Shown: positions 27,275 to 39,440 of the stretch, piece after piece | Layout: every line of letters starts with the position of its first letter | Numbering within the stretch: position 1 is the first letter of the stretch | Origin: Bacteroidota bacterium | GTDB lineage: Bacteria; Bacteroidota; Bacteroidia; B-17B0; Aurantibacillaceae | Length of the DNA: 64,000 nt | Direction of reading: 5' to 3' | Assembly: GCA_021156365.1 (NCBI GenBank) | Contig: JAJNDK010000004.1 | Coordinates: 255,137-319,136, forward strand | Notes under the pieces: model-generated | Database searches by the model: none | What the model was told of the DNA's origin: nothing | What the model saw: the letters and a program-made list of their open reading frames with translations, nothing else | Made by a program: the position numbers and the translations under genes

Positions 27275-30200
27275 ATGAACAAAAATCTATCCTCCTTGTT
27301 ATTGCTGGCTGGTGTCGCTGCAATGACCTATGCACTCTTTTCCAAAAGTGACCCAGCGTCCGAGACTGACCTGGTGAGCGAAACACCGGATACAACAATG
27401 GTATTGCCTGCCGATCCTTCTACTTTTCCGGCTTTACTGGTCCACCGGATTGAAGGAGACAGTACTTCTGTGCCACTGCACATGAGCGGCCTGAAGCTGG
27501 ATGTAAAAGTAGTAGGGAATATTGCGCTTAGCACGATGGAGATGACTTTTTACAATGATCTCGATCGCGTGCTGGAAGGGGACCTGTGTTTTCCCTTAGG
27601 TGAGGGGCAGACCGTATCCGGATTCGGGATGGAAACGGATGGAGTAATGCGGGATGGCGTAGTGGTGGAAAAGGCAAAAGCACGGCAGGTTTTTGAATCT
27701 GTTGTGAGAAGAAGGATCGACCCGGGATTACTGGAATGGACGAAAGGGAATAATTTCAAAACACGTGTGTACCCTATTCCTGCACATGGAAGCAAACGTG
27801 TTCGCATCAGCTTCGAGCAGGAGCTGATCTCTACGGTCAGTGGTTTTGTTTACCTGCAACCGATGCTGTTTAAAGACAAGATCGAGAAATTCGATCTTCG
27901 CGCAGAGGTGATTCAGCAATCGGTAAAACCAAGGTCTTCGAAAAATGCAGTGTCCATAGAATTCGACGAGTGGAACAACTCTTGGGTGGCAGAAAAGCGC
28001 CTGGAGAATTTCACAGGTAATAAAGCCCTTTCATTTGAGATACCAAAGGCAGAAGATATGCAACGTATTTTTGTAGAGAACACCGGCTATTTTTATCTCA
28101 CACTTGATCCGGTTAAATACATCCGCCCTAAAAAACTGCCTTCTTCTGTGTGCCTGCTTTGGGATGTTTCGGGATCAGGGCTGAACCGCGACATTCAAAA
28201 GGAGGAAGCCTTGCTGGACGTTTATTTCAAGAAGCTACAAAATGCAGGTATTCATCTGGTGACCTTTAGTAATACTATTCATACGGAATCGGATTTTATT
28301 CTCAGCAAAGGAAACTGGCAGGCACTGAAGGAAGAGCTGGACAGACAGGTGTTTGATGGAGGCACACAGTTAGGTGCGATCGATCTGAAAAAATACAAAG
28401 CTGAGGAGATTCTCCTGTGCTCGGACGGGCTCAGCACTTTCGGCGATGCAGACATGAAGCTCTCAAAAATCCCGGTTAATGCTATTTGTTCCTCGCAGTC
28501 GGCCGATCATTCCATGTTGAAATACATTACGCAGGCAACGGGCGGACATTATATAAATGCGCTTTCTACTACAAACGAAGAAGCGATGAAGCTCATCGGT
28601 ACAGAATCGTATCGGTTCTTAGGAGCAAGCCCGGGTGTGGGAAGGGTTTCCCAATTGTATCCTTCCATTCCTACGGATTTCAACAGAACAATTGCTGTAG
28701 CAGGAAAGATAGAAAGCTCTTCAGCGGAAGTCACATTGAATTTCGGTTTCGGGGATGAGATCGTCTATTCGAAAAAAGTGCTTGTACATGCTGCAACGCA
28801 GATCAAAGACGGTTTTGTGAAAAAGCTGTGGGCGCAAAAAAAGATCAGCGAACTCGATATGCGCTACGAAAAAAACAAGAAGGAAATAACTGCATTGGGA
28901 AAAGAATGCTCGATCGTTACACGCAACACTTCTTTGCTGGTGCTCGACAGGCTGGAAGACTATATTCAGCATCATGTAGTTCCTCCACAAAAAGAATGGC
29001 AGGAACAATATTATACAGCTATAAATGAACAGGTCGAAAATGTTGCTGCCGACAAGAACGCTCATCTCGAAGAAGTGGTGCAGGCCTTTCAGCAACGGAT
29101 CGATTGGTGGAACACCAGCTTTAAGTACAGGAATTATAAGAAGGAGCAGAAACCAAAGGTTGCACCAACGGTGCGTTTTTCTAATCCTGTTGTAACAGAT
29201 GATGCAACGGAGACTGAAACGGCAGCTTCTGACACATTCCGGGCTTTCAGAGGAAATGGGTTTGCGACTGCAGACTCCGTTTCATTTACACCAGGACGTG
29301 TCAATGAAACTTCGAATAATCTTGTTAACGCCGAAACCCAGAACTCACCCGTTACCGGCTGGTCATACAATGATCCGCAGAACGGAGGATTTGACCATGT
29401 TCCTTACGAAGAACAGGAAACAACTGCCGGAACAGCTTACACCTGGAGCTTTAATGGAACATCGGACGGGACAGTCGCGAATCAGTCGGGAGCATATGCC
29501 ACAACGTTAAATACCACCAGTTATAATGTAACAGTAACGGATGCCAATGGAGCTACAATGGCTACAAGGTCGGCCAACTTTCGCATGGAAGCCGGAGTAG
29601 TATCGAAGATCAACCTGAAGGCCTGGGATCCGAAAACACCTTATATGGAAAAGCTCAAAAAAGCAAAAGAACAAAACAGGTATGCGACTTATCTGGATTT
29701 ACGGAAAACCTATAAGGATCAGCCCGCTTTCTTTCTCGATGCCGGAAACTACTTTATCGAAAAGGGAGATAAGACAAATGGTCTTCGGGTACTTTCCAAT
29801 CTTGCCGAGTTTAATACAGAAGATCATAAGGCACTTCGTGTGTTGGCACATAAGCTGCAACAGGCGGGTTTCACCGATCTTGCTATTGCAATGTTTAAAG
29901 AAGTATTGAAGATCCGGGAAGAAGAACCACAGTCTTATCGCGACCTTGGTCTTGCACTGGCTGATAAAAAAGAGTACCAGGGCGCAGTGGATATGCTCTG
30001 CAAAGTCGCGAATAAACGATGGGACAGCCGTTTTCCCGGGATCGAAGTACTTGCAGCCAATGAGATCAATTCCCTGATCGCCAGCAGCGGAGCGAAAGTA
30101 AAATTAGATTCTCTCGATAAACGCCTGATCAAACCAATGCCGGTGGATGTGCGGATCGTGATCAACTGGGAGTCGGACAATTGTGATATGGATCTATGGG

Positions 30201-30511
30201 TGACGGATCCTGTAGGAGAGCAATGCATGTACAACCACAATGAAACACAGAACGGCGGCAGGATCTCGCAGGATTTTACAGGAGGTTACGGTCCGGAGGA
30301 ATTCATTGTAAAAAAAGCGCTGAACGGAAAATACCTCGTTCAGGTCAATTATTACGGCACGCGCGAGCAAACACTTTTAGGACCAACAACAGTTCAGGCG
30401 GAGCTATATACCAATTACGGAAAACCGAATCAGAAAAAACAGGAAGTCACACTCCGGCTGAAAGAGGATAAGGAAGTAATTGATATCGGCGCATTGGCTT
30501 TTGGGAAATAG
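27275..30511 (+). CDS. VIT-vWA-TPR-DUF2135 large protein (YfaP-like C-terminus)
   Basis: transmembrane/signal segment, VIT domain (LKLDVKVVGNIALSTMEMTF...RVYPIPAHGSKRVRISFEQ), vWA (LLWDVSGSG), TPR-like helices, C-terminal DUF2135-like beta domain (VRIVINWESDNCDMDLWVTDP...YGPEEF). Confidence 0.7.
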   Translation: MNKNLSSLLLLAGVAAMTYALFSKSDPASETDLVSETPDTTMVLPADPSTFPALLVHRIEGDSTSVPLHMSGLKLDVKVVGNIALSTMEMTFYNDLDRVLEGDLCFPLGEGQTVSGFGMETDGVMRDGVVVEKAKARQVFESVVRRRIDPGLLEWTKGNNFKTRVYPIPAHGSKRVRISFEQELISTVSGFVYLQPMLFKDKIEKFDLRAEVIQQSVKPRSSKNAVSIEFDEWNNSWVAEKRLENFTGNKALSFEIPKAEDMQRIFVENTGYFYLTLDPVKYIRPKKLPSSVCLLWDVSGSGLNRDIQKEEALLDVYFKKLQNAGIHLVTFSNTIHTESDFILSKGNWQALKEELDRQVFDGGTQLGAIDLKKYKAEEILLCSDGLSTFGDADMKLSKIPVNAICSSQSADHSMLKYITQATGGHYINALSTTNEEAMKLIGTESYRFLGASPGVGRVSQLYPSIPTDFNRTIAVAGKIESSSAEVTLNFGFGDEIVYSKKVLVHAATQIKDGFVKKLWAQKKISELDMRYEKNKKEITALGKECSIVTRNTSLLVLDRLEDYIQHHVVPPQKEWQEQYYTAINEQVENVAADKNAHLEEVVQAFQQRIDWWNTSFKYRNYKKEQKPKVAPTVRFSNPVVTDDATETETAASDTFRAFRGNGFATADSVSFTPGRVNETSNNLVNAETQNSPVTGWSYNDPQNGGFDHVPYEEQETTAGTAYTWSFNGTSDGTVANQSGAYATTLNTTSYNVTVTDANGATMATRSANFRMEAGVVSKINLKAWDPKTPYMEKLKKAKEQNRYATYLDLRKTYKDQPAFFLDAGNYFIEKGDKTNGLRVLSNLAEFNTEDHKALRVLAHKLQQAGFTDLAIAMFKEVLKIREEEPQSYRDLGLALADKKEYQGAVDMLCKVANKRWDSRFPGIEVLAANEINSLIASSGAKVKLDSLDKRLIKPMPVDVRIVINWESDNCDMDLWVTDPVGEQCMYNHNETQNGGRISQDFTGGYGPEEFIVKKALNGKYLVQVNYYGTREQTLLGPTTVQAELYTNYGKPNQKKQEVTLRLKEDKEVIDIGALAFGK

Positions 30512-30519
30512 TCCGGGGC

Positions 30520-31065
30520 TTATTTCCGGACCGTATCCCATTTCCCAAAATGCTGCAGGAAGATCTTCGCAATATTCCGTGCATCATCGATCCCGCGGTG
30601 GTGTGTGCCCTCAAGTTCGATCTTTTCCATCCACAGTGCGCCTGCCATTCCGGTATGTTTTTTCAGGCCTTTGATCCCGGTGTACTGATGTTTGAGACTG
30701 ATATGCTTTTCGAGCCAGGAGGTTTCCAGTTCGTGGAGCTCGCAATCGTTCTTCAGCTGCACGCGGTCATAATGGCCCCAGCTGCAGAGCAGGTAATCTT
30801 CTGTACCAATCCAGTTTCTGAATTTTTTCAGCACTTCCGGGAATGTTTCCGCAGCATCTACCTGCTCCTGGGTGATAGTTGTGAGTTTGATGCAGAAAGG
30901 CGAAAGCTGTGTATCCAGTTTGGGTTTCACAAATGCACAGAATTCGCTTTCAATAATTTTGTTTTCGTTGATGCAAAGCGCACCGATCTCAATGATCTCG
31001 TTTTTCTTTGATGGATCCCTCGGCTCCCAACAGGAGGCTTCGAGATCGAGTATAATGTATTTCAT
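30520..31065 (-). CDS. DEDDh 3'-5' exonuclease (ERI-1/KapD-like)
   Basis: Exo I DLEAS, Exo II, Exo III H-x4-D (HHRGIDDARN); 181 aa. Confidence 0.75.
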   Translation of the reverse strand: MKYIILDLEASCWEPRDPSKKNEIIEIGALCINENKIIESEFCAFVKPKLDTQLSPFCIKLTTITQEQVDAAETFPEVLKKFRNWIGTEDYLLCSWGHYDRVQLKNDCELHELETSWLEKHISLKHQYTGIKGLKKHTGMAGALWMEKIELEGTHHRGIDDARNIAKIFLQHFGKWDTVRK

Positions 31066-31080
31066 AATTTTCTTTTTTTG

Positions 31081-31398
31081 TTATAATTCTTTTTCTTCTT
31101 GTTTGTATTCACAGCGAATAGCTTTGCCATAAATGATCTTCGTCCAGCCATTCTCGAATCCATGATTGTTGGCGATCAGGAAGCCTTTATTCGTGTCTGT
31201 TTGAACGATCTTATGTGCATCTATGAAACGTCCTCTCACCTTGCAAAATACAATATCACCAATTTCATAGTGTTCAGCCTTTGTAAAGGTAAGCAGCGAA
31301 CCGCTTTTTAAAATGGGTAACATAGAATTGCCGAAGCATTTCATGGAACCTGTTCCTGTATTTTCTAATTCTTCTTTTAATCGTAAATATTTATTCAT
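31081..31398 (-). CDS. stand-alone S24-family (LexA/UmuD-like) peptidase domain protein
   Basis: GNSMLP Ser motif plus downstream Lys; 105 aa. Confidence 0.5.
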   Translation of the reverse strand: MNKYLRLKEELENTGTGSMKCFGNSMLPILKSGSLLTFTKAEHYEIGDIVFCKVRGRFIDAHKIVQTDTNKGFLIANNHGFENGWTKIIYGKAIRCEYKQEEKEL

Positions 31399-31453
31399 TT
31401 GTTTTTTTAATTGTAAAAAGCCCTGCTTCTATGGAAGCAGGGTCGGGTTTTAG

Positions 31454-32548
31454 TTATGGGCCGAACAGCGTTCGCAGCTGCGATGAAACGGGGCTCTCAC
31501 CGGAGATCGTAATACCATTGATCTTCGCTGTGATCTTTTCCACAAACTCCATCTCTTTGAGCTTGAACAGCATTGCATTGTCCTCCATCAGCTTCGCAGT
31601 GTTCAGAAGGCTACGTGTAGCTGCTGTTTCCTCACGACGCATGATGGTGTTGGCCTGTGCTTTTTTCTCCGCAATCAGTACCTGGTTCAGGATCTCTTTC
31701 ATATCACCTGGCAGGATGATGTCGCGGATACCACCACCGCGCAGTGCTACACCCAGTTCTTTGATACGTTCGGCAGCAGCTTCCAGGATGAAAGCGGAAA
31801 TGCTTTCTTTTTTATCCAGCAGTTCATCCAGGCTCAGCGCACCCACATACTCGCGCAGGACCAGCTGCATGATCACATAGAGTTGTTTTTCGTACTCTTT
31901 GTTATTCACCACTGCTTTCACAATGTCTTCAATGTGATACTGCACATAGAAATTGATACGCAGGCCCGCTTTGTCTTTGCTCAGGATCTCCTGGCCCGCG
32001 ATCTCCAGCTGCATCGTACGCATATCGGCACGCGTGATCACAATAGATGTGTTATTTTTCCAGAAGTAATACGAACCCGGTTCCATGATCTTCACGTATT
32101 TACCATCCATGTACATCACGGCTTTTTCACACGGCTCTACTGTATAAAAACGGATGTACTGGATCAGCTCTTTACGCATGTACAGGGATGGATCGATATC
32201 CGCACCGATCTCCGTTTTATTCAGATCCACGATTTTGAATTCCTGTATGATCAGACCTTTCCAGTATATATAAGTGCCGGGACCCAGCACTTCCATGAAC
32301 AGACCTTTTTCGTAACGCAGGGCAATCTCGTTATTTTTCACTTCAACGATATCGATAGCAGCTATGAAAGCCGGATCACGCATCAGGATATTGATGTTGC
32401 GGGGCGCAATGAATGGTTTCGCCATATCATATTCCACCAGCTCATCGAAGTAGGAAATACGATGTGCGCCTTCGGTCAGCACTGTTTTGTATTCGCCATC
32501 GGAAAATACCATGCCGATCTTACCGGCCTTTATTTTTATCTTTTTCAT
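31454..32548 (-). CDS. SPFH/band-7 (stomatin/flotillin-like) domain protein
   Basis: C-terminal SPFH core (LSLDELLDKKESIS...IKELGVALRGGGIRDIILPGDMKEILNQVLIAEKKAQA); start taken at MKKIKIKAGK. Confidence 0.65.
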   Translation of the reverse strand: MKKIKIKAGKIGMVFSDGEYKTVLTEGAHRISYFDELVEYDMAKPFIAPRNINILMRDPAFIAAIDIVEVKNNEIALRYEKGLFMEVLGPGTYIYWKGLIIQEFKIVDLNKTEIGADIDPSLYMRKELIQYIRFYTVEPCEKAVMYMDGKYVKIMEPGSYYFWKNNTSIVITRADMRTMQLEIAGQEILSKDKAGLRINFYVQYHIEDIVKAVVNNKEYEKQLYVIMQLVLREYVGALSLDELLDKKESISAFILEAAAERIKELGVALRGGGIRDIILPGDMKEILNQVLIAEKKAQANTIMRREETAATRSLLNTAKLMEDNAMLFKLKEMEFVEKITAKINGITISGESPVSSQLRTLFGP

Positions 32549-32872
32549 ATGTTTGTTTTTTCTTGTTTTTAAATTTAAAAGAAGGAATTGTTTCATTCAC
32601 CCGTGAATAGCGGAATCCTGTTTCAGTAAGCCGCTTTCGAATGGTTTTTATACAATTACAAGAAAGTCCATTGTATAAAAAGCAAAAGCTGTTGGCATAA
32701 CGGTATCCACATTCATCTGGCTTTCCACCGGTTGTTCCGTACCGCTTCCGGCGCGGAGCTGAATCAAACCATTCCTTTCTTTTTGAGCGCCATTTTTATA
32801 GAAGTCGGCATCTTCTCTTTTGAGGATCTGGAATCCTTTGCGTTTACCAGTTTCGCCACCCTGATTGCAACA

Positions 32873-32996
32873 TCAGGGGCAGGATTCGAACCTGCATGTT
32901 TGGTGTCACACTCTAACCACTGAGTTACCTGCATTGCTGCAGAACCGGATTCGAACCGGTGACCTTGACGTCATTCGTTCGTTAATCAACCGCAGC
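32873..32996 (-). pseudogene. two tandem degenerate tRNA-like fragments (D-arm plus T-arm, no anticodon arm)
   Basis: GTAACTCAGTGGTTAGAGT D-arm and GCAGGTTCGAATCCTGC / ACCGGTTCGAATCCGGT T-arms on the minus strand with incomplete acceptor stems. Confidence 0.3.
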
Positions 32997-33155
32997 ATAT
33001 AAATAACCAGTGGCCATTTACACTATGGGGCCTTTTGAAACCCTCATCACGGGCGTATTGCTAACGAAACGCTCTTTATCCTGCTTTCGCAGAAAATGAT
33101 TTTATATATTCAAAGAACTATTTTACTCTATCAACACTGCAAAGGTGAAACGCGA

Positions 33156-33176
33156 CTACGTAACCGAATTGCGCAG
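33156..33176. promoter_or_regulatory. palindromic operator copy (CTACGTAA-N5-TTGCGCAG)
   Basis: ctacgtaaccgaattgcgcag, preceded by caaaggtgaaa as at 27086. Confidence 0.5.
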
Positions 33177-33256
33177 GAACTATTTTTACTTCCTTTTTTT
33201 CTAAGCAACTGGAACAGAGCCGGAATACTTTTTTATCCCTTCCTGTTTTTGCTCAT

Positions 33257-33277
33257 CCGCGCAAATAGATTGCGTAG
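33257..33277. promoter_or_regulatory. palindromic operator copy (CCGCGCAA-N5-TTGCGTAG)
   Basis: ccgcgcaaatagattgcgtag. Confidence 0.5.
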
Positions 33278-33284
33278 ATCACTG

Positions 33285-33355
33285 TTCTCTTAACCGGAAT
33301 CGAACCAATATCTTATCCTTAGAAGGGATGTGTTTTTCCTTTAAACTATAAGAGA
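33285..33355 (-). tRNA. tRNA-Arg(UCU), AT-rich non-canonical
   Basis: hand fold: acceptor TCTCTTA/TAAGAGA, D-stem GTTT/AAAC, anticodon loop CTTCTAA, T-arm ATTGG-TTCGATT-CCGGT. Confidence 0.55.
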
Positions 33356-33358
33356 ATG

Positions 33359-33441
33359 TTCCTCCGAACCCCGATAGTTATCGGGGCGAACTTTTGTTTC
33401 GCGGTTAAAAGCCGCGAGCTCTGCCACTGAGCTACGAAGGA
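33359..33441 (-). ncRNA. tRNA-Lys(UUU)-like gene with T-arm replaced by palindromic hairpin CCCCGATAACTATCGGGG
   Basis: acceptor TCCTTCG/CGGAGGA, D-arm GCTC-AGTGGCA-GAGC, anticodon arm CGCGG-CTTTTAA-CCGCG; the T-arm position holds GTTCG[CCCCGATAACTATCGGGG]TTCGG. Confidence 0.45.
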
Positions 33442-33455
33442 ATTTATATTTTTAC

Positions 33456-33529
33456 TGGTAGCTCCTGATTGAATCGAACAATCACTTTATGGATGTAAGC
33501 CATACATTCTGCCTTTAAATTAAGGAGCT
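33456..33529 (-). tRNA. tRNA-Val(UAC), CCA encoded
   Basis: acceptor AGCTCCT/AGGAGCT, anticodon arm TATGG-CTTACAT-CCATA, T-arm GATTG-TTCGATT-CAATC, 3' ACCA encoded. Confidence 0.6.
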
Positions 33530-33535
33530 GTTTTG

Positions 33536-33607
33536 TTGCCTTAGAAAGAATCGAACCTTCACCCTCCGGTTTATGAGACCGGTGCTCCACCCTTGAGCTA
33601 TAAGGCA
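33536..33607 (-). tRNA. tRNA-Met/Ile2(CAU)
   Basis: acceptor TGCCTTA/TAAGGCA, D-arm GCTC-AAGGGTG-GAGC, anticodon arm CCGGT-CTCATAA-ACCGG, T-arm GAAGG-TTCGATT-CTTTC. Confidence 0.65.
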
Positions 33608-33613
33608 TTTTTG

Positions 33614-33685
33614 TTGTCTTAACAGGATTTGAACCTGTAGCCTCCGACGTATCAGGTCGTTGCTCCACCTGTTGAGCTATAAGAC
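33614..33685 (-). tRNA. tRNA-Ile(GAU)
   Basis: acceptor TGTCTTA/TAAGACA, D-arm GCTC..GAGC, anticodon loop CTGATAC, T-arm ACAGG-TTCAAAT-CCTGT. Confidence 0.6.
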
Positions 33686-33691
33686 AATGTG

Positions 33692-33762
33692 AGCAGAATA
33701 TCGGATTCGAACCGCGTCCCCTGGGTGGAAACCAGGTGCTTTACCACTAAGCTATATTCTGC
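33692..33762 (-). tRNA. tRNA-Gly(UCC)
   Basis: acceptor GCAGAAT/ATTCTGC (extendable to 9 bp), anticodon arm CCTGG-TTTCCAC-CCAGG, T-loop TTCGAAT with a weak 3-bp T-stem. Confidence 0.5.
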
Positions 33763-33906
33763 ATAGTATTCCCACGGTCCCGATAGCTATCGCGAGAACC
33801 CGTGTCTGGTCATTGAAAGTGACCGATCCTAACCATTAGAAGATGGGAACATAGTTCCTCTTCTTCATTCCTTTTGTTCTTCATTTTATTAATTATTAAT
33901 CGTTTG

Positions 33907-33975
33907 CACATTCACAGGGAATCGAACCTTGTCCTGCAGTTTTGGAGGCTGCGTGGCTACCATAGCCTTGAATGT
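33907..33975 (-). ncRNA. tRNA-like gene with 9-nt anticodon loop
   Basis: acceptor ACATTCA/TGAATGT, D-like hairpin GGCTA-TGG-TAGCC, stem GCAG-CCTCCAAAA-CTGC, T-arm ACAAGG-TTCGATT-CCCTGT. Confidence 0.35.
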
Positions 33976-33981
33976 AGTGGC

Positions 33982-34018
33982 GGTTCATAAGGGTCCCGAT
34001 AGCTGTCGGGACGGACCC
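33982..34018. repeat. extended palindromic element GGGTCCCGATAGCTGTCGGGACGGACCC
   Basis: member of the CCCGATAGCTATCGGG palindrome family (copies near 33369, 33779, 34265, 34974, 35372, 41201). Confidence 0.6.
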
Positions 34019-34232
34019 TTGTCTTCCGAGCGACAGTCGGAGATAATGGCCTTTATACCAATGAACCTGGTGCTTCGATAGATGCCGATGTGATGTACAA
34101 GGCTTTTGCAAACTTCGCCTTCATTGTCATCGGGCCGCGGACTTTAACCGCTCCTTGTACACTGCGCTTTGACAAGAGCACAGCTACATTTTTCGCATCT
34201 ATCCGGCGCGCCTTTGCATGGCTTACCGTTTG

Positions 34233-34318
34233 CGGACAAAGCAGGATTCGAACCTACTGCCTGATGCCCCGATAGCTATCGGGGCAGTCAACTGCTCATC
34301 CATATGAGCTTTTTGTCC
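34233..34318 (-). ncRNA. tRNA-like gene with anticodon arm replaced by a 22-bp perfect palindrome TGCCCCGATAGCTATCGGGGCA
   Basis: acceptor GGACAAA/TTTGTCC, D-arm GCTC-ATATGGAT-GAGC, T-arm GTAGG-TTCGAAT-CCTGC; the region between D- and T-arms is the palindromic hairpin with short flanks and no anticodon stem. Confidence 0.45.
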
Positions 34319-34328
34319 AATTTTTTTG

Positions 34329-34401
34329 AGCCAGTAGCAAGCCTCGAACTTGCGACCTTCTGCTTACAAGGCAGTTGCTCTTCCCGCTGAGCTATACCGG
34401 C
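34329..34401 (-). tRNA. tRNA-Thr(UGU), GC-rich canonical-looking
   Basis: acceptor GCCGGTA/TACTGGC, D-arm GCTC-AGCGGGAA-GAGC, anticodon arm ACTGC-CTTGTAA-GCAGA, T-arm GCAAG-TTCGAGG-CTTGC. Confidence 0.65.
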
Positions 34402-34462
34402 ATTTGAAGGTGAAAACGCAGTAAGCCAGGTTTTTCCTGATAGCTACACTCAATCACCTTTG

Positions 34463-34605
34463 TTGACCCGGATGGATTCGAACCATCGCAACCCGTGTTA
34501 ATCACTGACGAAAAATCTTAATCGATTTTTATCAGAATTAACCTTGATAAAACTTGTTTCGTCAAGGTTACAAGCACGGTACTCTACTTGCTGAGCTACA
34601 GATCA
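34463..34605 (-). ncRNA. tRNA-Thr(UGU)-like gene with ~70-nt structured insertion in the anticodon loop
   Basis: acceptor TGATCTG/CGGGTCA (2 GU pairs), D-arm GCTC-AGCAAGTA-GAGT, 5' anticodon stem CCGTG plus loop CTTGTAA, then insertion 34497-34566 with internal inverted repeats (CCTTGA..TCAAGG; AAAAATC..GATTTTT), then 3' stem CACGG, T-arm GATGG-TTCGAAT-CCATC. Confidence 0.4.
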
Positions 34606-34626
34606 ATAATTCAAGGAATACAATTT

Positions 34627-34772
34627 TTTAAAAGGGCAATGAACGAACATAGTTTTGGGTTTTCGTTAACAGCGAAGTAACTATGTTCTACGGCACCTTA
34701 TTTTAAAAGGCAATAAACGGGTATAGTTTTATTTTGCGTGACAGGCGAAGTAACTATACTCTACGGCACTTT
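34627..34772. repeat. two tandem ~73-nt paralogous hairpin units (candidate small structured RNAs)
   Basis: unit 1 has inverted repeat GAACATAGTT...AACTATGTTC; unit 2 has GTATAGTT...AACTATAC; the units share aaaggcaat..catagtttt..cgaagtaactat..ctacggcac. Confidence 0.45.
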
Positions 34773-34774
34773 TG

Positions 34775-34847
34775 TCGATCTACCTGGATTCGAACCAGGG
34801 ACTTCAGTCTTAAAAGGACTGAGCTCTGCCAACTGAGCTATAGACCG
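34775..34847 (-). tRNA. tRNA-Lys(UUU)
   Basis: acceptor CGGTCTA/TAGATCG, D-arm GCTC-AGTTGGC-AGAGC, anticodon arm CAGTC-CTTTTAA-GACTG, T-arm CCTGG-TTCGAAT-CCAGG. Confidence 0.65.
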
Positions 34848-34849
34848 AA

Positions 34850-35400
34850 ATTTGAATGGGTAAAAATCGAAAGAGAACGTTTTGGCGCTCTATCCGCTGA
34901 GCTATAAGGCAATGAAATGAATATTGGTTGCCTCAATGGGATTCGAACCCATGACCTCCCGATTAAGAGTCGATCCCGATAGCTATCGGGACTTTTCTAC
35001 GACACCATTCAATGGTTTTGATGAGGAAAAAAACGTTCAGTGCTTTTGTTAACTGAGCTACTCTTCATTGCTGAAAGATTGGACTTGAACCAATGGCCTT
35101 CCCGACATTTATCGTCGGGGCGCTCTACCGAAGTATCACTTTACTACGTCACTCATCAATGTTTTTAAACAGGTAAAAAGCTGTAAAAGTTTTTTGTCTT
35201 GTGCTCTAACCAACTGAGCTATCTGCCTTTCGACAAAACCGGACTCGAACCGGTGCCCCCAAGGTTAACGATGTATCTCTTACATACGACACTGTTTAAT
35301 TTTGAAGAAAGAGCGATGGTTGCGGGAGCGTGTCTTAGAGGATTCGAACCTCTGACCTTTCGGCCTCACCATCCCGATAGCTATCGGGAGAAGTATCTCT
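34850..35400 (-). pseudogene. run of degenerate or rearranged tRNA-like fragments with palindrome insertions
   Basis: 5' half TGCCTTATAGCTCAGCGGATAGAGC (34850-34913); 3' half ..ATGGGTTCGAATCCCATTGAGGCAACCA with palindrome (34925-35012); Leu(UAA)-like anticodon hairpin CCCGAC-GATAAAT-GTCGGG plus T-arm ATTGG-TTCAAGT-CCAAT (~35060-35110); 5' half GGCAGATAGCTCAGTTGGTTAGAGCAC (~35200); T-arm ACCGG-TTCGAGT-CCGGT (~35235); element 35320-35400 with palindrome, GAAA-tetraloop hairpin and T-arm AGAGG-TTCGAAT-CCTCT. None folds into a complete cloverleaf by hand. Confidence 0.3.
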
Positions 35401-35447
35401 CCGCGAACGGCATCTTTCAATAGGTTTGTCAGGAGCAATTGCGATCC

Positions 35448-35520
35448 GCAGTGATGGAGACCTGCCGGCGGGGATTTGCACCCCGTTCCGTTTCTGCACC
35501 GGAACCCTCTCTCCTATGGA
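35448..35520 (-). ncRNA. D-armless tRNA-like hairpin RNA with TGCAAAT T-loop (candidate Y-RNA-like)
   Basis: GGAGAGA..TCTCC closing stem, stem GTTCCG/CGGAAC, T-like arm GGGG-TGCAAAT-CCCC; located ~290 bp downstream of the rsr stop. Confidence 0.35.
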
Positions 35521-35589
35521 TGGTATGCTCACCGCGATCTACGGCAACCTGACAATGTGTTTAATTATATGCTGTCAAAAGCGAAATGC

Positions 35590-35660
35590 GATGAGGGCAG
35601 GGGATACGCAATGAGGATTTGCACCTCTTCCTGATTGTAATGTCAGGACCCTTCCCCTTC
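35590..35660 (-). ncRNA. D-armless tRNA-like RNA with TGCAAAT T-loop (candidate Y-RNA-like)
   Basis: closing stem GGGGAAG/..TATCCCC, anticodon-like arm TCCTGA-CATTACAA-TCAGGA, T-like arm GAGG-TGCAAAT-CCTC; paralog of 35448-35520; ~150 bp downstream of rsr. Confidence 0.35.
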
Positions 35661-35744
35661 AATGGCGCGAAGTAGCCCTTTTCTGCGGCATTCTGGCAGC
35701 AATGTTTTTTTGTCTTTGAATAATATGTCAATGAACGAATTTCT

Positions 35745-35797
35745 TTTAAAACCTCCCTGTCTCCTTCGACAAGCTCAGGATGACGGGGGAGGAGTTT
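35745..35797 (-). terminator. rho-independent terminator of rsr
   Basis: minus strand CCTCCCCCGTCATCCTGAGCTTGTCGAAGGAGACAGGGAGG followed by TTTT; loop sequence resembles the terminator at 63065-63110. Confidence 0.6.
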
Positions 35798-35803
35798 TTT
35801 ATT

Positions 35804-37321
35804 TTATAATTCAATTTGTTTGATTTTTTCTACTGCACCCACACCATTTTCGATAGCGTGCAATACATCAAACACTTTGTCCGACCAACCTGCGATCAGG
35901 TGTACATCGTTTTTCTGAACGTTCAGCGGCGTGTTTCCATGGCCCGCAAGATCGAACAGGTACAATTTTGCTTTTGGCGCGATCGCTTTGTAGGCATTCC
36001 AGGATTTCTCCAGGGAAGAACCCGCATGACGGCTATCCCACAGCTGGCAGTCGGTGAACAGCATCACTTTATCCATCACCACGTTTCGTGCGATCAGGTC
36101 ATCGATCACTTTGTAACCATTGGTCGAGTAACCCACTTCACCTTCACGTTTGTAGTATTGGTCCACATTGGCCAGTACTCCGCGGTTTGGCAGGTTGATC
36201 ACTTTCCAGGTATCACCGAACATACCTGATACCACACGCTTACATTTCGACTGCATCAGCATACCCAGCATCAGGCCGATGTCGTAAAACATCACTTTGC
36301 TTTTAGCCGATACGGCTTGCTGCATCGAACCGGATACGTCACATGCTACCAGCACGGCAGTGTTCTCGTCGAAACCTTTCAGGTTCTTAACGCTTGCCAC
36401 CACTGCATCTTCCAGCGCATTCAATACCATGGTCACGAACTCCGAGTTCATCACTTTGATCTCACGGTGCGCTGCGAGGAAACGGAATGGCAACTGTTTC
36501 GAGTTTGCCACCGCAGTCTCATTCGACAGGTAAGCGCATACTTTTTTCACATGCGAAGCAGATACTTTTGCTTCCAGTATGTTACGCAGGTTACGCATCA
36601 AAGCCATATAACCAACTTTACCGCTGTCGATCAGTTCTTCCCATTTAGCACGGAAAGCTGCAGCCTTTTCTTTATCGTTGGCATATTTTGTCTGACCCAA
36701 TGCCGACAGCTCAGTTTCCCAGGTGTATGGAACAGCCAGTTCGTTCGCAGCTATTTTATTGAACACCACTTGCTGGTTCTCGTCTTTCGCTTTTGGATGC
36801 ACTATGAACAGGGCGTCACGCAATTTCACTTCCGCATCCCGATTGTATTTTGCGAACTGGTATTCATCGAAACGGTTGAAAGATACTGCCAGCCCTTTCT
36901 GGATCTGCTTCGACAGCTTATTCAGCTTTTTAGTACCGTTACGTTTGTTGGCCAGCTGGTAATATGCCAGGAGCTCGGTGATCTCATCGGCACGTTTTAC
37001 CACGCCCGATACGGTTTTACCTACCACCGCATCACCGGAGTTCAGTTTGGCCAGTTCTACCGCCAGTACCATTGGGATCGAACGCATATACATTTCGTTA
37101 CGTGCATACACTGCCAGTTTCGCTACGTATTGTGCATCGTTTTTCAACATCAGCTCACGGATACGTGTCAAACGGGTATCTGCTTTCTCATAGAAGCTGT
37201 CGTTTAGGCCCGCAGTTACTACCGCTGAGTATAGCTCCAGCTCAGGAGTCAGTTGGAATGCTTTTGCACCTTCATAGTTTGTAACTACGTTTTCTGTTTT
37301 TTTGAAGATGTTGAATTTCAT
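35804..37321 (-). CDS. rsr: Ro60-like (TROVE domain plus vWA/MIDAS) ribonucleoprotein Rsr
   Basis: 505 aa; N-terminal TROVE-like helical repeats (NYEGAKAFQLTPELELYSAVVTAGL...MRSIPMVLAVELA); C-terminal vWA MIDAS (VLVACDVSGSMQ). Confidence 0.8.
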   Translation of the reverse strand: MKFNIFKKTENVVTNYEGAKAFQLTPELELYSAVVTAGLNDSFYEKADTRLTRIRELMLKNDAQYVAKLAVYARNEMYMRSIPMVLAVELAKLNSGDAVVGKTVSGVVKRADEITELLAYYQLANKRNGTKKLNKLSKQIQKGLAVSFNRFDEYQFAKYNRDAEVKLRDALFIVHPKAKDENQQVVFNKIAANELAVPYTWETELSALGQTKYANDKEKAAAFRAKWEELIDSGKVGYMALMRNLRNILEAKVSASHVKKVCAYLSNETAVANSKQLPFRFLAAHREIKVMNSEFVTMVLNALEDAVVASVKNLKGFDENTAVLVACDVSGSMQQAVSAKSKVMFYDIGLMLGMLMQSKCKRVVSGMFGDTWKVINLPNRGVLANVDQYYKREGEVGYSTNGYKVIDDLIARNVVMDKVMLFTDCQLWDSRHAGSSLEKSWNAYKAIAPKAKLYLFDLAGHGNTPLNVQKNDVHLIAGWSDKVFDVLHAIENGVGAVEKIKQIEL

Positions 37322-37391
37322 TTTGTTTAGTTTTTAAATTTCTTGTTTATCAATTGTTGTTCTTAATCAGCACTGCAAAGATTCTATACTC

Positions 37392-37412
37392 CTGCGCAAC
37401 AGAATTGCGCAG
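37392..37412. promoter_or_regulatory. perfect palindromic operator CTGCGCAA-cagaa-TTGCGCAG upstream of rsr
   Basis: 71-91 bp upstream of the rsr start; 8-bp arms are exact reverse complements. Confidence 0.65.
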
Positions 37413-37503
37413 TAAAAAAATAATTCGCGGAACGATCAAATAAATCTGTAATGTGTTGATTTTCATTTGAGATAATTTCAAAAGAAAATTCATCTCTTTC
37501 CTA

Positions 37504-37524
37504 TTGCGCAAATAGATTGCGCAG
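37504..37524. promoter_or_regulatory. palindromic operator TTGCGCAA-ataga-TTGCGCAG upstream of the WYL regulator gene
   Basis: 51-71 bp upstream of the WYL gene start; likely autoregulatory site. Confidence 0.65.
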
Positions 37525-37574
37525 ATAAATGAAATGTTTATCTTTGATACAACCTGTTTTTAAATAAAAACGTT

Positions 37575-38588
37575 ATGCCCATTAATAAATTAGCCCTTGT
37601 TCGCTACAAAACCATCGACAATTGTTTACAGAACCGTTTTCGCAAATGGACGCTGGACGACCTGATGGAGGCGGTTTCCGAAGCTTTGTATGAATACGAA
37701 GGTATCACCAAAGGCATCAGCCGGAGAACCATACAGCTTGATCTGCAAAACATGCGCAGTGAGAAACTTGGTTACAATGCACCGATCGTAGTAACGGATA
37801 AAAAGTTCTACAGTTACGAAGACAAGCAGTACAGCATCACCAGTATTCCTTTAACAGAACAGGATATGGGCACGTTGAACGAAGTGTTGGGTGTTCTGAA
37901 ACAATTCAAAGGCTTTGGTTATTTCCAGGAACTTACCGGGATGGTAACCAAGCTCGAGGACAAGCTTTATAAGCAACAGCATAAAGGCAAATCATATATC
38001 GATTTTGAAAAAAACGAATTGCTCAAAGGTTTAGAGTTTATTGATCCTTTGCACAAAGCGATCATCAATCGTAAAACGATCGAGATCACTTATCAATCCT
38101 TTAAAGCGAATCAATCACAGCAGATCGTTTTTTATCCTTATCTACTGAAAGAATACCGCAATCGCTGGTTCCTCTTCGGTATGAACAGAAAAGGCAGCTC
38201 AGCGATGATCCTTGCACTGGACCGCATTGAGAAGTTCAAAGAGCTCTCCGAAAAATATGTGAAAGCACCTTTCGATGCGCACATGTTTTTCGATGATGTG
38301 ATCGGTGTAAGTAAAGCGCCCGGACAAAAACCATCAACCATTGTGATGAAGATCGACAAAGAAAATGCACCTTATGTGATCACCAAGCCGATCCATCCTT
38401 CGCAAAAGATCCTGAAGGAAGAACCCGACGGGATCTTATTCAGCATTGATGTTGTCTGGAACTTTGAGCTGGAACGTGAATTGCTTGGCTTCGGTGAGAA
38501 GCTGCACATACTTTCTCCGCGTAGGCTTGCCGGAAAAATACAATCGCGTTTGAAACACACATTACAAAAATATCAAAGAACGGAATAA
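37575..38588 (+). CDS. HTH-WYL-WCX domain transcriptional regulator
   Basis: N-terminal wHTH (LALVRYKTIDNCLQ), WYL signature (IVFYPYLLKEYRNRWFLFGMN), C-terminal WCX-like region. Confidence 0.8.
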   Translation: MPINKLALVRYKTIDNCLQNRFRKWTLDDLMEAVSEALYEYEGITKGISRRTIQLDLQNMRSEKLGYNAPIVVTDKKFYSYEDKQYSITSIPLTEQDMGTLNEVLGVLKQFKGFGYFQELTGMVTKLEDKLYKQQHKGKSYIDFEKNELLKGLEFIDPLHKAIINRKTIEITYQSFKANQSQQIVFYPYLLKEYRNRWFLFGMNRKGSSAMILALDRIEKFKELSEKYVKAPFDAHMFFDDVIGVSKAPGQKPSTIVMKIDKENAPYVITKPIHPSQKILKEEPDGILFSIDVVWNFELERELLGFGEKLHILSPRRLAGKIQSRLKHTLQKYQRTE

Positions 38589-38594
38589 TACGTG

Positions 38595-38670
38595 TCGGGA
38601 AAGCAGGATTTGAACCTGCGAACTCTCGCTTCCAGGGCGAGCGGGGACGGCCTGACTCCCCCATTTCCCG
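38595..38670 (-). tRNA. tRNA-Pro(UGG)-like, C at position 33
   Basis: acceptor CGGGAAA/TTTCCCG (C1:G72 as in bacterial tRNA-Pro), D-arm GGGG-AGTCAGGCCGT-CCCC (11-nt loop), anticodon arm CTCGC-CCTGGAA-GCGAG, T-arm GCAGG-TTCAAAT-CCTGC. Confidence 0.5.
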
Positions 38671-38681
38671 TTTTATCTTTG

Positions 38682-38755
38682 TCGATCAATGAGGACTCGA
38701 ACCTCAAACCTTCTGATTCGTAATCAGGTGCTCTATCCAATTGAGCTATTGATCG
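38682..38755 (-). tRNA. tRNA-Arg(ACG)
   Basis: acceptor CGATCAA/TTGATCG all Watson-Crick, D-arm GCTC..GAGC, anticodon loop TTACGAA, T-arm TGAGG-TTCGAGT-CCTCA. Confidence 0.7.
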
Positions 38756-38756
38756 G

Positions 38757-38832
38757 TGGTGGACAAGGGTGGGATCGAACCACCTTCTCCGGATTTTCAG
38801 TCCGGCGCATAGACCAACTCTGCTACTTGTCC
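38757..38832 (-). tRNA. tRNA-Phe(GAA), CCA encoded
   Basis: acceptor GGACAAG/CTTGTCC, anticodon arm CCGGA-CTGAAAA-TCCGG, T-arm GGTGG-TTCGATC-CCACC, ACCA 3' end; only 1 nt from the preceding gene. Confidence 0.6.
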
Positions 38833-38956
38833 ATTTCATCAACACTTTATGCAAGCCACCTTCCGGATTTTAAAGTGGCTGCTTTTGCCACTTTGAGGTC
38901 GCTATTCGCTCGGTTCAATCCGCTGCATTGACCATCTTTGCTACATTTCCATTTTG

Positions 38957-39029
38957 GGTGAGATAGGGGAATTGAACCCGTATCTGCGGCATCACAAGCC
39001 GATGTGTTGACCATTACACCAATCTCACC
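38957..39029 (-). tRNA. tRNA-His(GUG) with encoded G-1 and C73
   Basis: G-1 plus acceptor GTGAGAT/ATCTCAC, D-arm GTGT-AATGGTCA-ACAC, anticodon arm TCGGC-TTGTGAT-GCCGC, T-loop TTCAATT. Confidence 0.55.
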
Positions 39030-39067
39030 ATGTTTCAATTGTAGCAAAACGTTCGCTGCAATTGTAG

Positions 39068-39143
39068 TCGGGAAGGCTGGATTCGAACCAGCGAACTCCT
39101 GCGTCCAAGGCAGGCGGGGACGACCTGACTCCCCTACTTCCCG
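39068..39143 (-). tRNA. tRNA-Pro(UGG), paralog of 38595-38670
   Basis: acceptor CGGGAAG/CTTCCCG, D-arm GGGG-AGTCAGGTCGT-CCCC, anticodon arm CCTGC-CTTGGAC-GCAGG, T-arm GCTGG-TTCGAAT-CCAGC. Confidence 0.55.
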
Positions 39144-39172
39144 TAGTTTTTTTATCGGTCTACAAACCGAAG

Positions 39173-39267
39173 TGGGAAAGACAGTCACGCTATAGCGTGA
39201 GAACCTGCTAAGCCTTGCGGCGACGGAGTTACAGTCCGTCTCAACTCACCATCGTTGACGCTTTCCC
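39173..39267 (-). ncRNA. tRNA-Tyr(GUA)-like gene with T-arm replaced by a 6-bp/TATA-tetraloop palindromic hairpin
   Basis: acceptor GGGAAAG/CTTTCCC, class-II D-arm TCAA-CGATGGTGAG-TTGA, anticodon arm ACGGA-CTGTAAC-TCCGT, variable arm GCC-GCAA-GGC, then TCACGC-TATA-GCGTGA where the T-arm should be. Confidence 0.4.
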
Positions 39268-39274
39268 ATTTTTG

Positions 39275-39348
39275 TACCCTCTACAGGATTCGAACCTGCA
39301 CTCTCTTGTTTCTAAGACAAGCGCCTTTGCCTGTTTGGCTAAGAGGGC
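39275..39348 (-). tRNA. tRNA-Leu(UAG)-like lacking the long variable arm
   Basis: acceptor GCCCTCT/AGAGGGT, 3-bp D-stem with long D-loop GCC-AAACAGGCAAA-GGC, anticodon arm CTTGT-CTTAGAA-ACAAG, 5-nt variable AGAGT, T-arm GCAGG-TTCGAAT-CCTGT. Confidence 0.45.
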
Positions 39349-39356
39349 ATATTTTG

Positions 39357-39439: not shown

Positions 39440-39440
39440 G

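What the first reader, a model, noticed from the sequence alone, without database searches (positions are those of the whole stretch)
34463..34605. tRNA-Thr(UGU)-like gene interrupted by a ~70-nt structured element in the anticodon loop
The 5' anticodon stem CCGTG plus loop CTTGTAA is separated from the 3' stem CACGG by 34497-34566, which itself contains two inverted repeats. It is too short for a group I intron and resembles either a mini-intron or a small hairpin mobile element inserted at the anticodon loop. An intact canonical Thr(UGU) gene lies 60 nt away at 34329-34401.
Basis: seen in the sequence. Interest (0 to 1): 0.55.

Follow-up and report, generated by a model that had tools for sequence, protein, structure and literature searches.

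The report
Hairpin-interrupted tRNA in a Ro60 RNA array
A complete tRNA-shaped gene in a Bacteroidota genome carries a 70-base, two-hairpin insert at the spot in the anticodon loop where archaeal and eukaryotic tRNA introns sit; it lies in a cluster of Ro60-associated small RNAs and RNA-repair genes and fits no known bacterial intron type.

Summary
Window 34463-34605 (minus strand) is a full tRNA cloverleaf: Rfam tRNA 42.2 bits, and ARAGORN calls Thr(UGU) with a 70-nt intron. The insert is nt 38-107 of the gene (34499-34568). It sits between positions 37 and 38 and folds into two hairpins that use all 70 nt.

It is not a group I intron and has no bulge-helix-bulge motif or known ribozyme. No second copy was found in any sequence I could search.

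The context changes the reading. The gene lies 1.2 kb downstream of a Ro60/Rsr gene, in an array of at least 8 Y-RNA-like units, tRNAs and damaged tRNA look-alikes. This array sits inside an RNA-repair island (Pnkp, two RNA ligases, RlaP, Thg1-like).

- **Sister strain.** A 99.5%-identical strain keeps the insert, but its anticodon reads UUU instead of UGU.
- **Second lineage.** Another Bacteroidota lineage has an unrelated 49-nt insert at the same 37/38 site of a tRNA-Phe. It is kept across 82%-diverged genomes, with compensatory stem changes.

Best reading (about 0.4): a non-decoding tRNA mimic of the Ro60/Y-RNA repair system. Rivals are a pseudogene hit by a hairpin element (0.3) and an enzyme-spliced intron (0.2). 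No expression data exist.

The parts
34463..34605 (-). Whole interrupted tRNA-shaped gene (143 nt)
   Evidence: Rfam tRNA 42.2 bits over model 1-71; ARAGORN -i calls Thr(tgt) i(38,70)
34569..34605 (-). 5' part, nt 1-37: acceptor 5' strand, D arm (loop AGCAAGUA, only one G where G18G19 is expected), anticodon stem 5' strand CCGUG, loop CUUGUA
   Evidence: Read from the sequence; Rfam alignment
34570..34572 (-). Anticodon UGU. The middle base (window 34571) is U in the 99.5%-identical strain L193, giving UUU.
34499..34568 (-). 70-nt insert between tRNA positions 37 and 38
   Evidence: ARAGORN i(38,70); folds alone at -19.5 kcal/mol, z -3.5; no copy elsewhere
34541..34568 (-). Hairpin A (nt 38-65): ACCUUGA/UCAAGGU plus an inner GAAA/UUUU helix. 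It contains GACGAA (34558-34563), which matches the first six positions of the bacterial Y-RNA motif GNCGAA.
   Evidence: motif definition from PMC4201824
34499..34540 (-). Hairpin B (nt 66-107): 17 bp with two single-base bulges, loop GAUUAA. Its 3' strand UUUCGUCA can instead pair with UGACGAAA of hairpin A.
   Evidence: the alternative pairing is read from the sequence
34463..34498 (-). 3' part, nt 108-143: A38, anticodon stem 3' strand CACGG, variable loop GUUGC, T arm, acceptor 3' strand, A73. No CCA is encoded.
34329..34401 (-). Neighbouring intact tRNA-Thr(UGU) with the same loop CUUGUAA. It is only 64% identical to the spliced candidate, so it is not a recent duplicate.
34620..34773 (-). 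Two small Y-RNA-like units just upstream of the candidate (5' AGUGCCGUAG ... UACUUCG ... 3' UAUUGCC), conserved in relatives
34861..35283 (-). Three YrlA-type units (Rsr motif, T arm, closed acceptor hairpin, D arm). Two of them give weak Rfam YrlA hits (31.5 and 38.4 bits).
35804..37321 (-). Ro60/Rsr (TROVE) gene heading the RNA array
   Evidence: Pfam TROVE 9.4e-29
24010..41913 (.). RNA-repair island around the array: RlaP, Pnkp, Rnl1-like ligase, VIT/vWA, RNase T, Band-7, WYL regulator, a second tRNA array, DRB0094-type RNA ligase, Thg1-like protein

Best explanation
The locus is an accessory-array tRNA gene with a Thr(UGU)/Lys(UUU)-type body. It carries a self-contained 70-nt two-hairpin module exactly between positions 37 and 38.

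My preferred mechanism is as follows. The gene is transcribed with the rest of the minus-strand RNA array downstream of rsr. RNase P and RNase Z cut it out like its tRNA neighbours. It then persists as a roughly 143-nt L-shaped RNA whose anticodon arm ends in a three-way junction, so it cannot decode.

It would act as a tRNA mimic in the Ro60/Y-RNA RNA-repair system. The tRNA body would attract tRNA-recognising enzymes or anticodon nucleases, and the hairpin module would serve as a binding platform, possibly for Rsr. Topologically this is a circular permutation of YrlA: in YrlA the Rsr-binding stem also leaves the tRNA-like domain at the anticodon-stem position, but there the RNA ends lie in that stem and the acceptor is closed.

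**Shown:** gene anatomy, insert position and fold, genomic context, and maintenance of an analogous insert-bearing tRNA in another lineage.
**Inferred:** expression, processing, absence of splicing, and any binding to Rsr.
For: 1. **Full cloverleaf with a clean insert.** The insert sits at 37/38 and its two hairpins use all 70 nt.
2. **Genomic context.** It is on the same strand as rsr and 1.2 kb downstream, among at least 8 units with the motif GNCGUAG...ACUUCG. Five of the seven exact TGNCGTAG matches in the 64-kb window lie in 34688-35546. Three YrlA-type units are present. The array sits inside a Pnkp/Rnl/RlaP/Thg1 repair island.
3. **Not needed for decoding.** An intact tRNA-Thr(UGU) lies 61 nt away. 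The D loop lacks G18G19, and pairs 1-72 and 2-71 are U-A and G-C.
4. **Unstable anticodon.** In strain L193 (99.5% identical) the whole gene including the insert is identical except G35 to U, turning UGU into UUU. All 17 canonical tRNAs of the two arrays show no change.
5. **Tolerated loop changes nearby.** Orthologues of normal tRNA-Asn, Asp and Glu of L003 have loops replaced by a palindromic hairpin.
6. **A maintained analogue.** L010 and L194 (Ro60 82% identical) share a 49-nt insert at 37/38 of the array tRNA-Phe(GAA). Its first 21 nt are identical. Between the two, pairs 28-42 and 49-65 changed on both sides and stayed paired. Five intronless orthologues show a clean 49-nt gap. Insert-bearing tRNAs can therefore be kept under selection.
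7. **Open-acceptor precedents.** tRNA-shaped RNAs with the Rsr motif in the anticodon arm exist in other rsr loci (L082, L098).
8. **Partial motif match.** The insert contains GACGAA, matching GNCGAA, on one strand of a possible 8-bp helix UGACGAAA/UUUCGUCA (PMC4201824).
Against: - There are no expression or binding data.
- The insert lacks the local Rsr-type module (5' GUGNCGUAG plus 3' UAUUGCC) found in every Y unit of this array.
- GACGAA lacks the final G of the published motif. A five-base specified match is expected by chance in about 5-7% of 70-nt sequences.
- In the minimum-energy fold GACGAA lies inside hairpin A, not in a terminal stem.
- Rfam YrlA does not match the candidate.
- The gene is absent from relatives with 75-84% Ro60 identity, which do conserve the flanking Y RNAs up to window 34618. 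It is therefore young and lineage-specific, and its only sequence comparison is with a near-identical strain.
- Exact restoration of a canonical CUUGUAA loop on removing the insert fits an intron or a recent insertion equally well.
Confidence: 0.4

Rival explanations
1. It is an inactivated accessory tRNA gene. A small hairpin-forming DNA element (MITE- or REP-like) landed in the anticodon loop of a spare tRNA, and the gene is now drifting.
For: - **Active loop damage in this array.** An 18-bp palindrome TCCCGATAGCTATCGGGA occurs 7 times in the window against 0.08 expected. It replaces the T or anticodon loops of tRNA-Asn, Asp, Glu and Lys-like genes.
- **Polymorphism between close strains.** L193 has the palindrome in the T loop of tRNA-Met where the window's copy is intact, and L193 lacks the 83-nt Lys-like pseudo-tRNA.
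- **Lineage-specific candidate.** It is absent from all relatives with 84% or lower Ro60 identity.
- **Anticodon hit.** The only substitution in the candidate between the two strains falls on the anticodon.
- **Element-like ends.** The insert has an 8-bp subterminal inverted repeat (TGACGAAA/TTTCGTCA) and could be flanked by a TAA duplication (read from the sequence).
- **Redundancy.** An intact Thr(UGU) gene sits next door.
Against: - No second copy was found in the 64-kb window, in 2.9 Mb of related loci, in metagenome contigs as an exact match, or in phage and plasmid collections.
- The insert is unrelated to the palindrome family.
- The cloverleaf is fully intact: 5/5 anticodon-stem and 7/7 acceptor pairs.
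- The analogous tRNA-Phe insert in L010 and L194 has been maintained, with compensatory changes in the tRNA stems.
Confidence: 0.3
2. It is a true intron removed by proteins. An unidentified endonuclease cuts at the bases of the two hairpins, and one of the island's RNA ligases (Rnl1-like with Pnkp, or the DRB0094-type ligase) joins the halves to give a working tRNA-Thr(UGU), or tRNA-Lys(UUU) in the sister strain.
For: - **Position and clean removal.** The insert sits at the canonical 37/38 site. Removing it restores exactly the 7-nt loop CUUGUAA, identical to that of the neighbouring tRNA-Thr.
- **Discrete unit.** The insert boundaries coincide with the bases of the hairpins.
- **Sealing enzymes are present.** T4-type healing and sealing enzymes, which repair anticodon-loop breaks, are encoded 7-10 kb away.
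- **Intact analogue.** The L010/L194 tRNA-Phe insert keeps an intact CUGAAA|A loop and a compensated cloverleaf.
- **A73.** A73 together with a UUU anticodon would suit lysyl-tRNA synthetase (my own knowledge of E. coli identity rules).
Against: - There is no bulge-helix-bulge motif in the constrained fold, whereas the same test finds a perfect one in the L105 tRNA-Tyr control.
- No splicing endonuclease or RtcB was found among the 38 window ORFs scanned.
- No known ribozyme or group I fold was found at E up to 10.
- Protein-dependent tRNA splicing has never been reported in bacteria (my own knowledge).
- The D loop lacks G18G19.
- The anticodon differs between near-identical strains.
- The gene is redundant with an intact Thr(UGU) copy.
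Confidence: 0.2

Closest known systems
YrlA / bacterial Y RNAs (Rfam RF02553; Chen et al. 2014, PMC4201824)
   Same: It is encoded next to Ro60/Rsr. It has a tRNA-like domain with canonical T and D arms, and a non-tRNA stem module leaves the tRNA-like domain at the anticodon-stem position. Several such RNAs occur per locus.
   Different: Here the acceptor stem is open and 7 bp long, with the RNA ends there, and the extra module is closed. This is a circular permutation of the YrlA layout. The full GNCGAAN0-1G motif and the local GNCGUAG/UAUUGCC module are missing, and Rfam YrlA gives no hit.
Archaeal and eukaryotic tRNA introns (bulge-helix-bulge, cut by the splicing endonuclease EndA)
   Same: The position (37/38) and size range are the same, and the tRNA cloverleaf is otherwise complete. 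Ligases able to seal tRNA halves are encoded nearby.
   Different: There is no bulge-helix-bulge motif, the host is bacterial, and no EndA or RtcB was found in the window. A true example was seen for comparison: the L105 tRNA-Tyr, in a probably archaeal viral contig.
Bacterial group I introns in tRNA anticodon loops (e.g. tRNA-Leu(UAA) of cyanobacteria; Patescibacteria, PMC13011429)
   Same: It is an intervening sequence in the anticodon loop of a bacterial tRNA gene.
   Different: It is 70 nt rather than about 200 nt or more, has no P1-P9 core, and gives no Rfam group I hit.
REP / MITE-type palindromic insertions
   Same: It is a short, hairpin-forming, AT-rich insert with a subterminal inverted repeat. 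The same array shows ongoing hairpin insertions into tRNA loops.
   Different: It appears to be single-copy as far as I could search, and it is unrelated to the recurrent 18-bp palindrome.
The 49-nt insert in the array tRNA-Phe(GAA) of L010 and L194
   Same: It occurs in a Bacteroidota rsr-linked array, at the 37/38 site, and is AU-rich and structured. CUUG(N)CGAA lies 3-5 nt from the 5' junction and AUUAA lies at the 3' junction.
   Different: It interrupts a different tRNA, forms a single irregular hairpin rather than two, and has no overall sequence similarity. The shared short motifs were noticed after the fact and could be chance.

Membership tests
BHB (archaeal/eukaryal-type) tRNA intron | Intron in a tRNA, typically between positions 37 and 38 | tested here: met
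   ARAGORN i(38,70); Rfam alignment
BHB (archaeal/eukaryal-type) tRNA intron | Bulge-helix-bulge at the junctions: 3-nt bulge, 4-bp helix, 3-nt bulge | tested here: not met
   The constrained fold gives a three-way junction with no such motif. The same procedure recovers a perfect motif in the L105 tRNA-Tyr.
BHB (archaeal/eukaryal-type) tRNA intron | Host encodes the splicing endonuclease EndA (and usually RtcB) | tested here: inconclusive
   None among the 38 window ORFs scanned with Pfam. The rest of the genome was not available.
Group I intron | Conserved P1-P9 catalytic core, usually 200 nt or more | tested here: not met
   The insert is 70 nt. No Intron_gpI or other ribozyme hit at E up to 10.
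YrlA / bacterial Y RNA | Encoded within a few kb of Ro60/Rsr | tested here: met
   1.2 kb downstream of the TROVE gene 35804-37321, on the same strand
YrlA / bacterial Y RNA | tRNA-like domain with T and D arms | tested here: met
   Rfam tRNA 42.2 bits over the full model
YrlA / bacterial Y RNA | Rsr-binding motif GNCGAAN0-1G (locally GNCGUAG, paired with a 3' UAUUGCC) in a stem formed by the RNA ends | tested here: not met
   Only GACGAA is present, inside the insert, without the final G. The local module is absent.
YrlA / bacterial Y RNA | YrlA topology (closed acceptor hairpin, ends in the Rsr stem); match to RF02553 | tested here: not met
   No YrlA hit over 34463-34605. The acceptor stem is open.
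YrlA / bacterial Y RNA | Physical association with Rsr | not testable with these tools
   Needs co-immunoprecipitation
MITE / REP-like mobile insertion | Multiple dispersed copies | tested here: inconclusive
   No copy in the window, 2.9 Mb of related loci, metagenome contigs (exact match), phages or plasmids. The source genome outside the window was not searchable.
MITE / REP-like mobile insertion | Terminal inverted repeats and target-site duplication | tested here: inconclusive
   There is an 8-bp subterminal inverted repeat, TGACGAAA/TTTCGTCA. A TAA on both sides is possible, but it is indistinguishable from the loop sequence.
Functional elongator tRNA-Thr | 7-nt anticodon loop in the mature RNA; G18G19; a stable anticodon; G1-C72 and C2-G71 (E. 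coli threonyl-tRNA synthetase identity rules, from my own knowledge) | tested here: not met
   The loop is interrupted. The D loop is AGCAAGUA. Pairs 1-72 and 2-71 are U-A and G-C. The anticodon is UGU here and UUU in the 99.5%-identical strain.

The most novel reading that the evidence does not exclude
Bacteroidota Ro60/RNA-repair islands may maintain a previously undescribed class of tRNA genes with structured inserts at position 37/38. These inserts are neither group I nor bulge-helix-bulge introns. They would be one of two things:
- open-acceptor 'tRNA-Y RNA chimeras', or
- substrates of a bacterial, protein-dependent cut-and-ligate tRNA splicing pathway that uses the island's own healing and sealing enzymes.

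The L010/L194 tRNA-Phe case, with a conserved insert and compensated stems, and this Thr/Lys case would be its first two members.
Probability: 0.25. Interest if true: 0.85.

Novelty: new variant of a known kind. Interest (0 to 1): 0.6.

Why it matters
Bacteria are thought to have only self-splicing (group I) tRNA introns. A short, structured, non-group-I insert at the canonical 37/38 site is therefore unexpected, especially as a second lineage maintains one with compensatory changes.

If it is spliced, bacteria would have an enzyme-based tRNA splicing route tied to RNA-repair ligases.

If it is not spliced, it extends the Y RNA/YrlA idea to open-ended, tRNA-shaped RNAs with cargo in the anticodon arm. 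That would support a picture in which Ro60 loci hold a graded series from real tRNAs to tRNA decoys, possibly aimed at anticodon nucleases. Both possibilities can be tested directly with a Northern blot or RT-PCR.

Tried and rejected
- **Group I intron or known ribozyme.** Rejected: Rfam at E up to 10 over 34200-35450 found nothing but tRNA and YrlA hits, and the insert is only 70 nt.
- **Bulge-helix-bulge intron.** Rejected for the candidate and for L010.
- **L088 and L105 as bacterial comparators.** These IMG/VR contigs carry many intron-bearing tRNAs. I set them aside because L088 encodes PCNA and DUF7249 and L105 has a perfect bulge-helix-bulge motif. They are probably archaeal viruses with ordinary archaeal introns.
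- **ARAGORN 'intron' calls next to rsr.** Most of those with 30-130-nt introns are artefacts. They join the D arm of one YrlA unit to the T arm of the next, or they are a separate roughly 190-nt RNA.
- **Homologues of the insert or the spliced tRNA.** None were found in 190 related loci, metagenome contigs (exact match), phages or plasmids.
- **My own tRNA covariance model R1.** It found the palindrome-bearing tRNA look-alikes, but only the T arm of the candidate.
- **Promoter and terminator scan.** Nothing specific at the candidate.
- **Coding potential.** Only 30-37-aa ORFs overlap the region.
- **Shared motif CUUG(N)CGAA.** It is not enriched overall in the loci: 200 found against about 180 expected.
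- **Literature.** Searches found no report of the palindrome or of such inserts. Burroughs & Aravind 2016 and Sim et al. 2020 could not be opened.

Full report
**1. The observation**

The tRNA genes of this window are on the minus strand. Rfam's tRNA model matches 34463-34605 end to end at 42.2 bits (gathering score 29), skipping 72 nt inside the anticodon loop.

Read from the sequence, the parts are:
- acceptor UGAUCUG/CGGGUCA (7 bp)
- D arm GCUC-AGCAAGUA-GAGU
- anticodon stem CCGUG/CACGG
- loop CUUGUA|A
- variable loop GUUGC
- T arm GAUGG-UUCGAAU-CCAUC
- discriminator A73, with no encoded CCA

The insert is nt 38-107 (window 34499-34568). On its own it forms two adjacent hairpins of 28 and 42 nt that use all 70 bases (-19.5 kcal/mol, z = -3.5). 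Everything else in the description is right. The sequence is identical in two assemblies.

**2. What it is not**

- No group I intron or any known ribozyme is detected, even at E up to 10.
- With the anticodon stem constrained, the fold is a three-way junction. It lacks the 3-nt bulge, 4-bp helix, 3-nt bulge motif.
- The same procedure recovers a textbook motif in the tRNA-Tyr of locus L105. That control comes from a probably archaeal viral contig.
- No splicing endonuclease or RtcB was found among the 38 window ORFs scanned.
- The insert has no second copy in the window, in 190 related loci, in metagenome contigs as an exact match, or in phage and plasmid collections.

**3. Context**

The organism is a Bacteroidota MAG. 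The best Ro60 relatives are Chitinophaga-like at 83-84% identity.

The candidate lies 1.2 kb downstream of a Ro60/Rsr (TROVE) gene at 35804-37321, on the same strand. The surrounding genes form an RNA-repair island:
- RlaP, Pnkp and a T4 Rnl1-like ligase
- a VIT/vWA protein, RNase T and a Band-7 protein
- a WYL regulator
- a DRB0094-type RNA ligase and a Thg1-like protein

A type XIII retron sits next to the island.

Bacterial Y RNAs carry the motif GNCGAAN0-1G and mimic tRNA (PMC4201824). On the minus strand after rsr I find at least eight units with the variant GNCGUAG...ACUUCG. Five of the seven exact TGNCGTAG matches in the whole window lie in 34688-35546. Three of the units have the YrlA layout, and two of those give weak Rfam YrlA hits.

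The order downstream of rsr is:
1. three Y units
2. three YrlA-type units
3. tRNA-Lys
4. two small Y RNAs
5. the candidate
6. tRNA-Thr(UGU)
7. a series of tRNAs and damaged tRNA look-alikes

**4. Comparative evidence**

*Distant relatives.* Relatives with 75-84% Ro60 identity conserve the Y units, tRNA-Lys and the small Y RNAs up to window 34618. None has the candidate or its spliced form.

*Sister strain.* Strain L193 is 99.5% identical. It has the same gene with an identical insert, but G35 is U, so the anticodon is UUU rather than UGU. None of the 17 canonical tRNAs differs between the two strains, against 25 substitutions in 9.4 kb overall.

*An independent case.* L010, a groundwater Bacteroidetes MAG, has tRNA-Phe(GAA) with a 49-nt insert at 37/38.
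- Its spliced form is the clear orthologue of an intronless array tRNA-Phe in several relatives; five of them were aligned.
- L194, whose Ro60 is 82% identical to that of L010, carries the same insert.
- The alignment shows a clean 49-nt gap in the five intronless genes.
- The first 21 nt of the insert are identical in L010 and L194, and the terminal helix AAUGAG/CUCAUU is preserved.
- Pairs 28-42 and 49-65 changed on both sides between L010 and L194 and stayed paired.

Such an insert-bearing tRNA can therefore be maintained over substantial divergence.

The two inserts share CUUG(N)CGAA near the 5' junction and AUUAA at the 3' junction. I noticed this after the fact, and the motif is not enriched overall, so I treat it only as a lead.

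**5. Interpretation**

Three readings remain.

*(a) A non-decoding tRNA mimic of the Ro60/Y-RNA system (0.4).* It would be a circular permutation of YrlA, with the extra module in the anticodon arm. In favour:
- the context;
- the redundancy with the neighbouring tRNA-Thr;
- the deviant D loop;
- the unstable anticodon;
- the maintained L010/L194 analogue;
- open-acceptor tRNA-shaped RNAs that carry the Rsr motif in the anticodon arm in L082 and L098.

Its weak point is that the insert lacks the local Rsr-type module. It has only GACGAA.

*(b) A spare tRNA knocked out by a hairpin element (0.3).* The array clearly suffers such events (section 6). However, this insert is single-copy as far as I could search, and the cloverleaf is untouched.

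*(c) An intron removed by an unknown endonuclease and sealed by the island's ligases (0.2).* This reading is attractive because removal restores the exact loop CUUGUAA. It has no precedent in bacteria, and no recognisable cleavage motif is present.

**6. Other findings in the array**

*An 18-bp palindrome.* TCCCGATAGCTATCGGGA occurs 7 times in the window against 0.08 expected.
- It replaces the anticodon loop of the tRNA-Asn orthologue and the T loops of the Asp, Glu and a Lys-like tRNA.
- It sits in two Y units and inside the Thg1-like ORF.
- In L193 it is also in the T loop of tRNA-Met, which is intact in the window. It is therefore actively spreading or being exchanged.
- The same 14-mer core recurs in many Flavobacterium rsr loci.

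*Anticodon-loop-like hairpins in Y units.* The ACUUCG segment of many Y units is followed by a hairpin with a 7-nt loop. The anticodon-loop signature (U at loop position 2, purine at position 6) is present in 63 of 136 such loops, against about 12.5% expected. The commonest loops are CUUUUAA (Lys) and CUGUUAA (Asn). This suggests the array presents anticodon-loop mimics.

**7. Verdict**

The feature is real and structurally clean. It is a new variant among Ro60-linked tRNA mimics, or possibly something more novel. Its function is unresolved without RNA data. Interest 0.6.

Noticed in passing
window 33371-33384, 33780-33793, 33996-34009, 34269-34282, 34976-34989, 35374-35387, 41203-41216; L193 9774: An 18-bp perfect palindrome, TCCCGATAGCTATCGGGA, occurs 7 times against 0.08 expected. 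It replaces the T loop or anticodon loop of tRNA genes that are normal in relative L003 (Asn, Asp, Glu), and it also sits in two Y RNA units. In the 99.5%-identical strain L193 it is additionally inserted after G57 of tRNA-Met, which is intact in the window. The same core recurs in many Flavobacterium rsr loci, and L156/L157 carry a compensated variant, CCGAAAGCTTTCGG. No literature hit.
   Followed up: partly
window 41203-41216 (inside the Thg1-like ORF 41098-41913, minus strand): One copy of the same palindrome lies inside a protein-coding gene without breaking the reading frame. It is also present in L193.
   Followed up: no
window 33358-33441: A tRNA-Lys(UUU)-like gene whose T arm is replaced by the palindrome is present here but cleanly absent from strain L193 (an 83-nt indel).
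   Followed up: partly
window 34620-34773; alignment A2; all loci: The small Y RNAs look like stripped-down tRNAs. GNCG-UA-G resembles the acceptor end plus U8-A9-G10, and ACUUCG opens a hairpin whose 7-nt loop mimics an anticodon loop (CUGUCAC, Asp-like; CUGUUAA, Asn-like; CUUUUAA, Lys-like in relatives). Across the loci, 63 of 136 such loops have the U33/R37 signature.
   Followed up: partly
L113 2160-2350, L116 6606-6796, L012 11562-11756, L021 9696-9887 and more than 20 other loci: A conserved tRNA-like RNA of about 190 nt sits directly beside rsr in many Bacteroidota (gacccgAUAGCUUAAAAGGAAAAGC ... GUAGGGAAGCG ... GAGUUCGAAUCUC). It has no Rfam match. I did not notice it in this window, but I did not search for it there.
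   Followed up: partly
window 42785-49256: A type XIII retron (RT_XIII, SWIM_XIII and WGR/HEAT_XIII; PADLOC E-values from 1e-184 to 1e-280) sits directly next to the RNA-repair island and the second tRNA array.
   Followed up: no
window 39274-39348 and 39542-39615: Two array tRNAs with Leu anticodons (UAG, CAG) are only 74-75 nt long and have a short variable loop. Bacterial tRNA-Leu normally has a long variable arm, so these may not be ordinary Leu acceptors.
   Followed up: no
L082 11637-11764; L098 2927-3051 and 3057-3180: These are tRNA-shaped RNAs with an open 7-bp acceptor stem and the Rsr-type motif (GUGUCGUAG...UACUUCG) placed in the anticodon arm. This is a permuted YrlA layout that Rfam's YrlA model would not describe.
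   Followed up: partly
L194 4217-8911: The L010/L194 lineage pairs its rsr array with two RtcB genes and an RF-1-like (PrfH-type) gene, rather than the Pnkp/Rnl1 set seen in the window.
   Followed up: no
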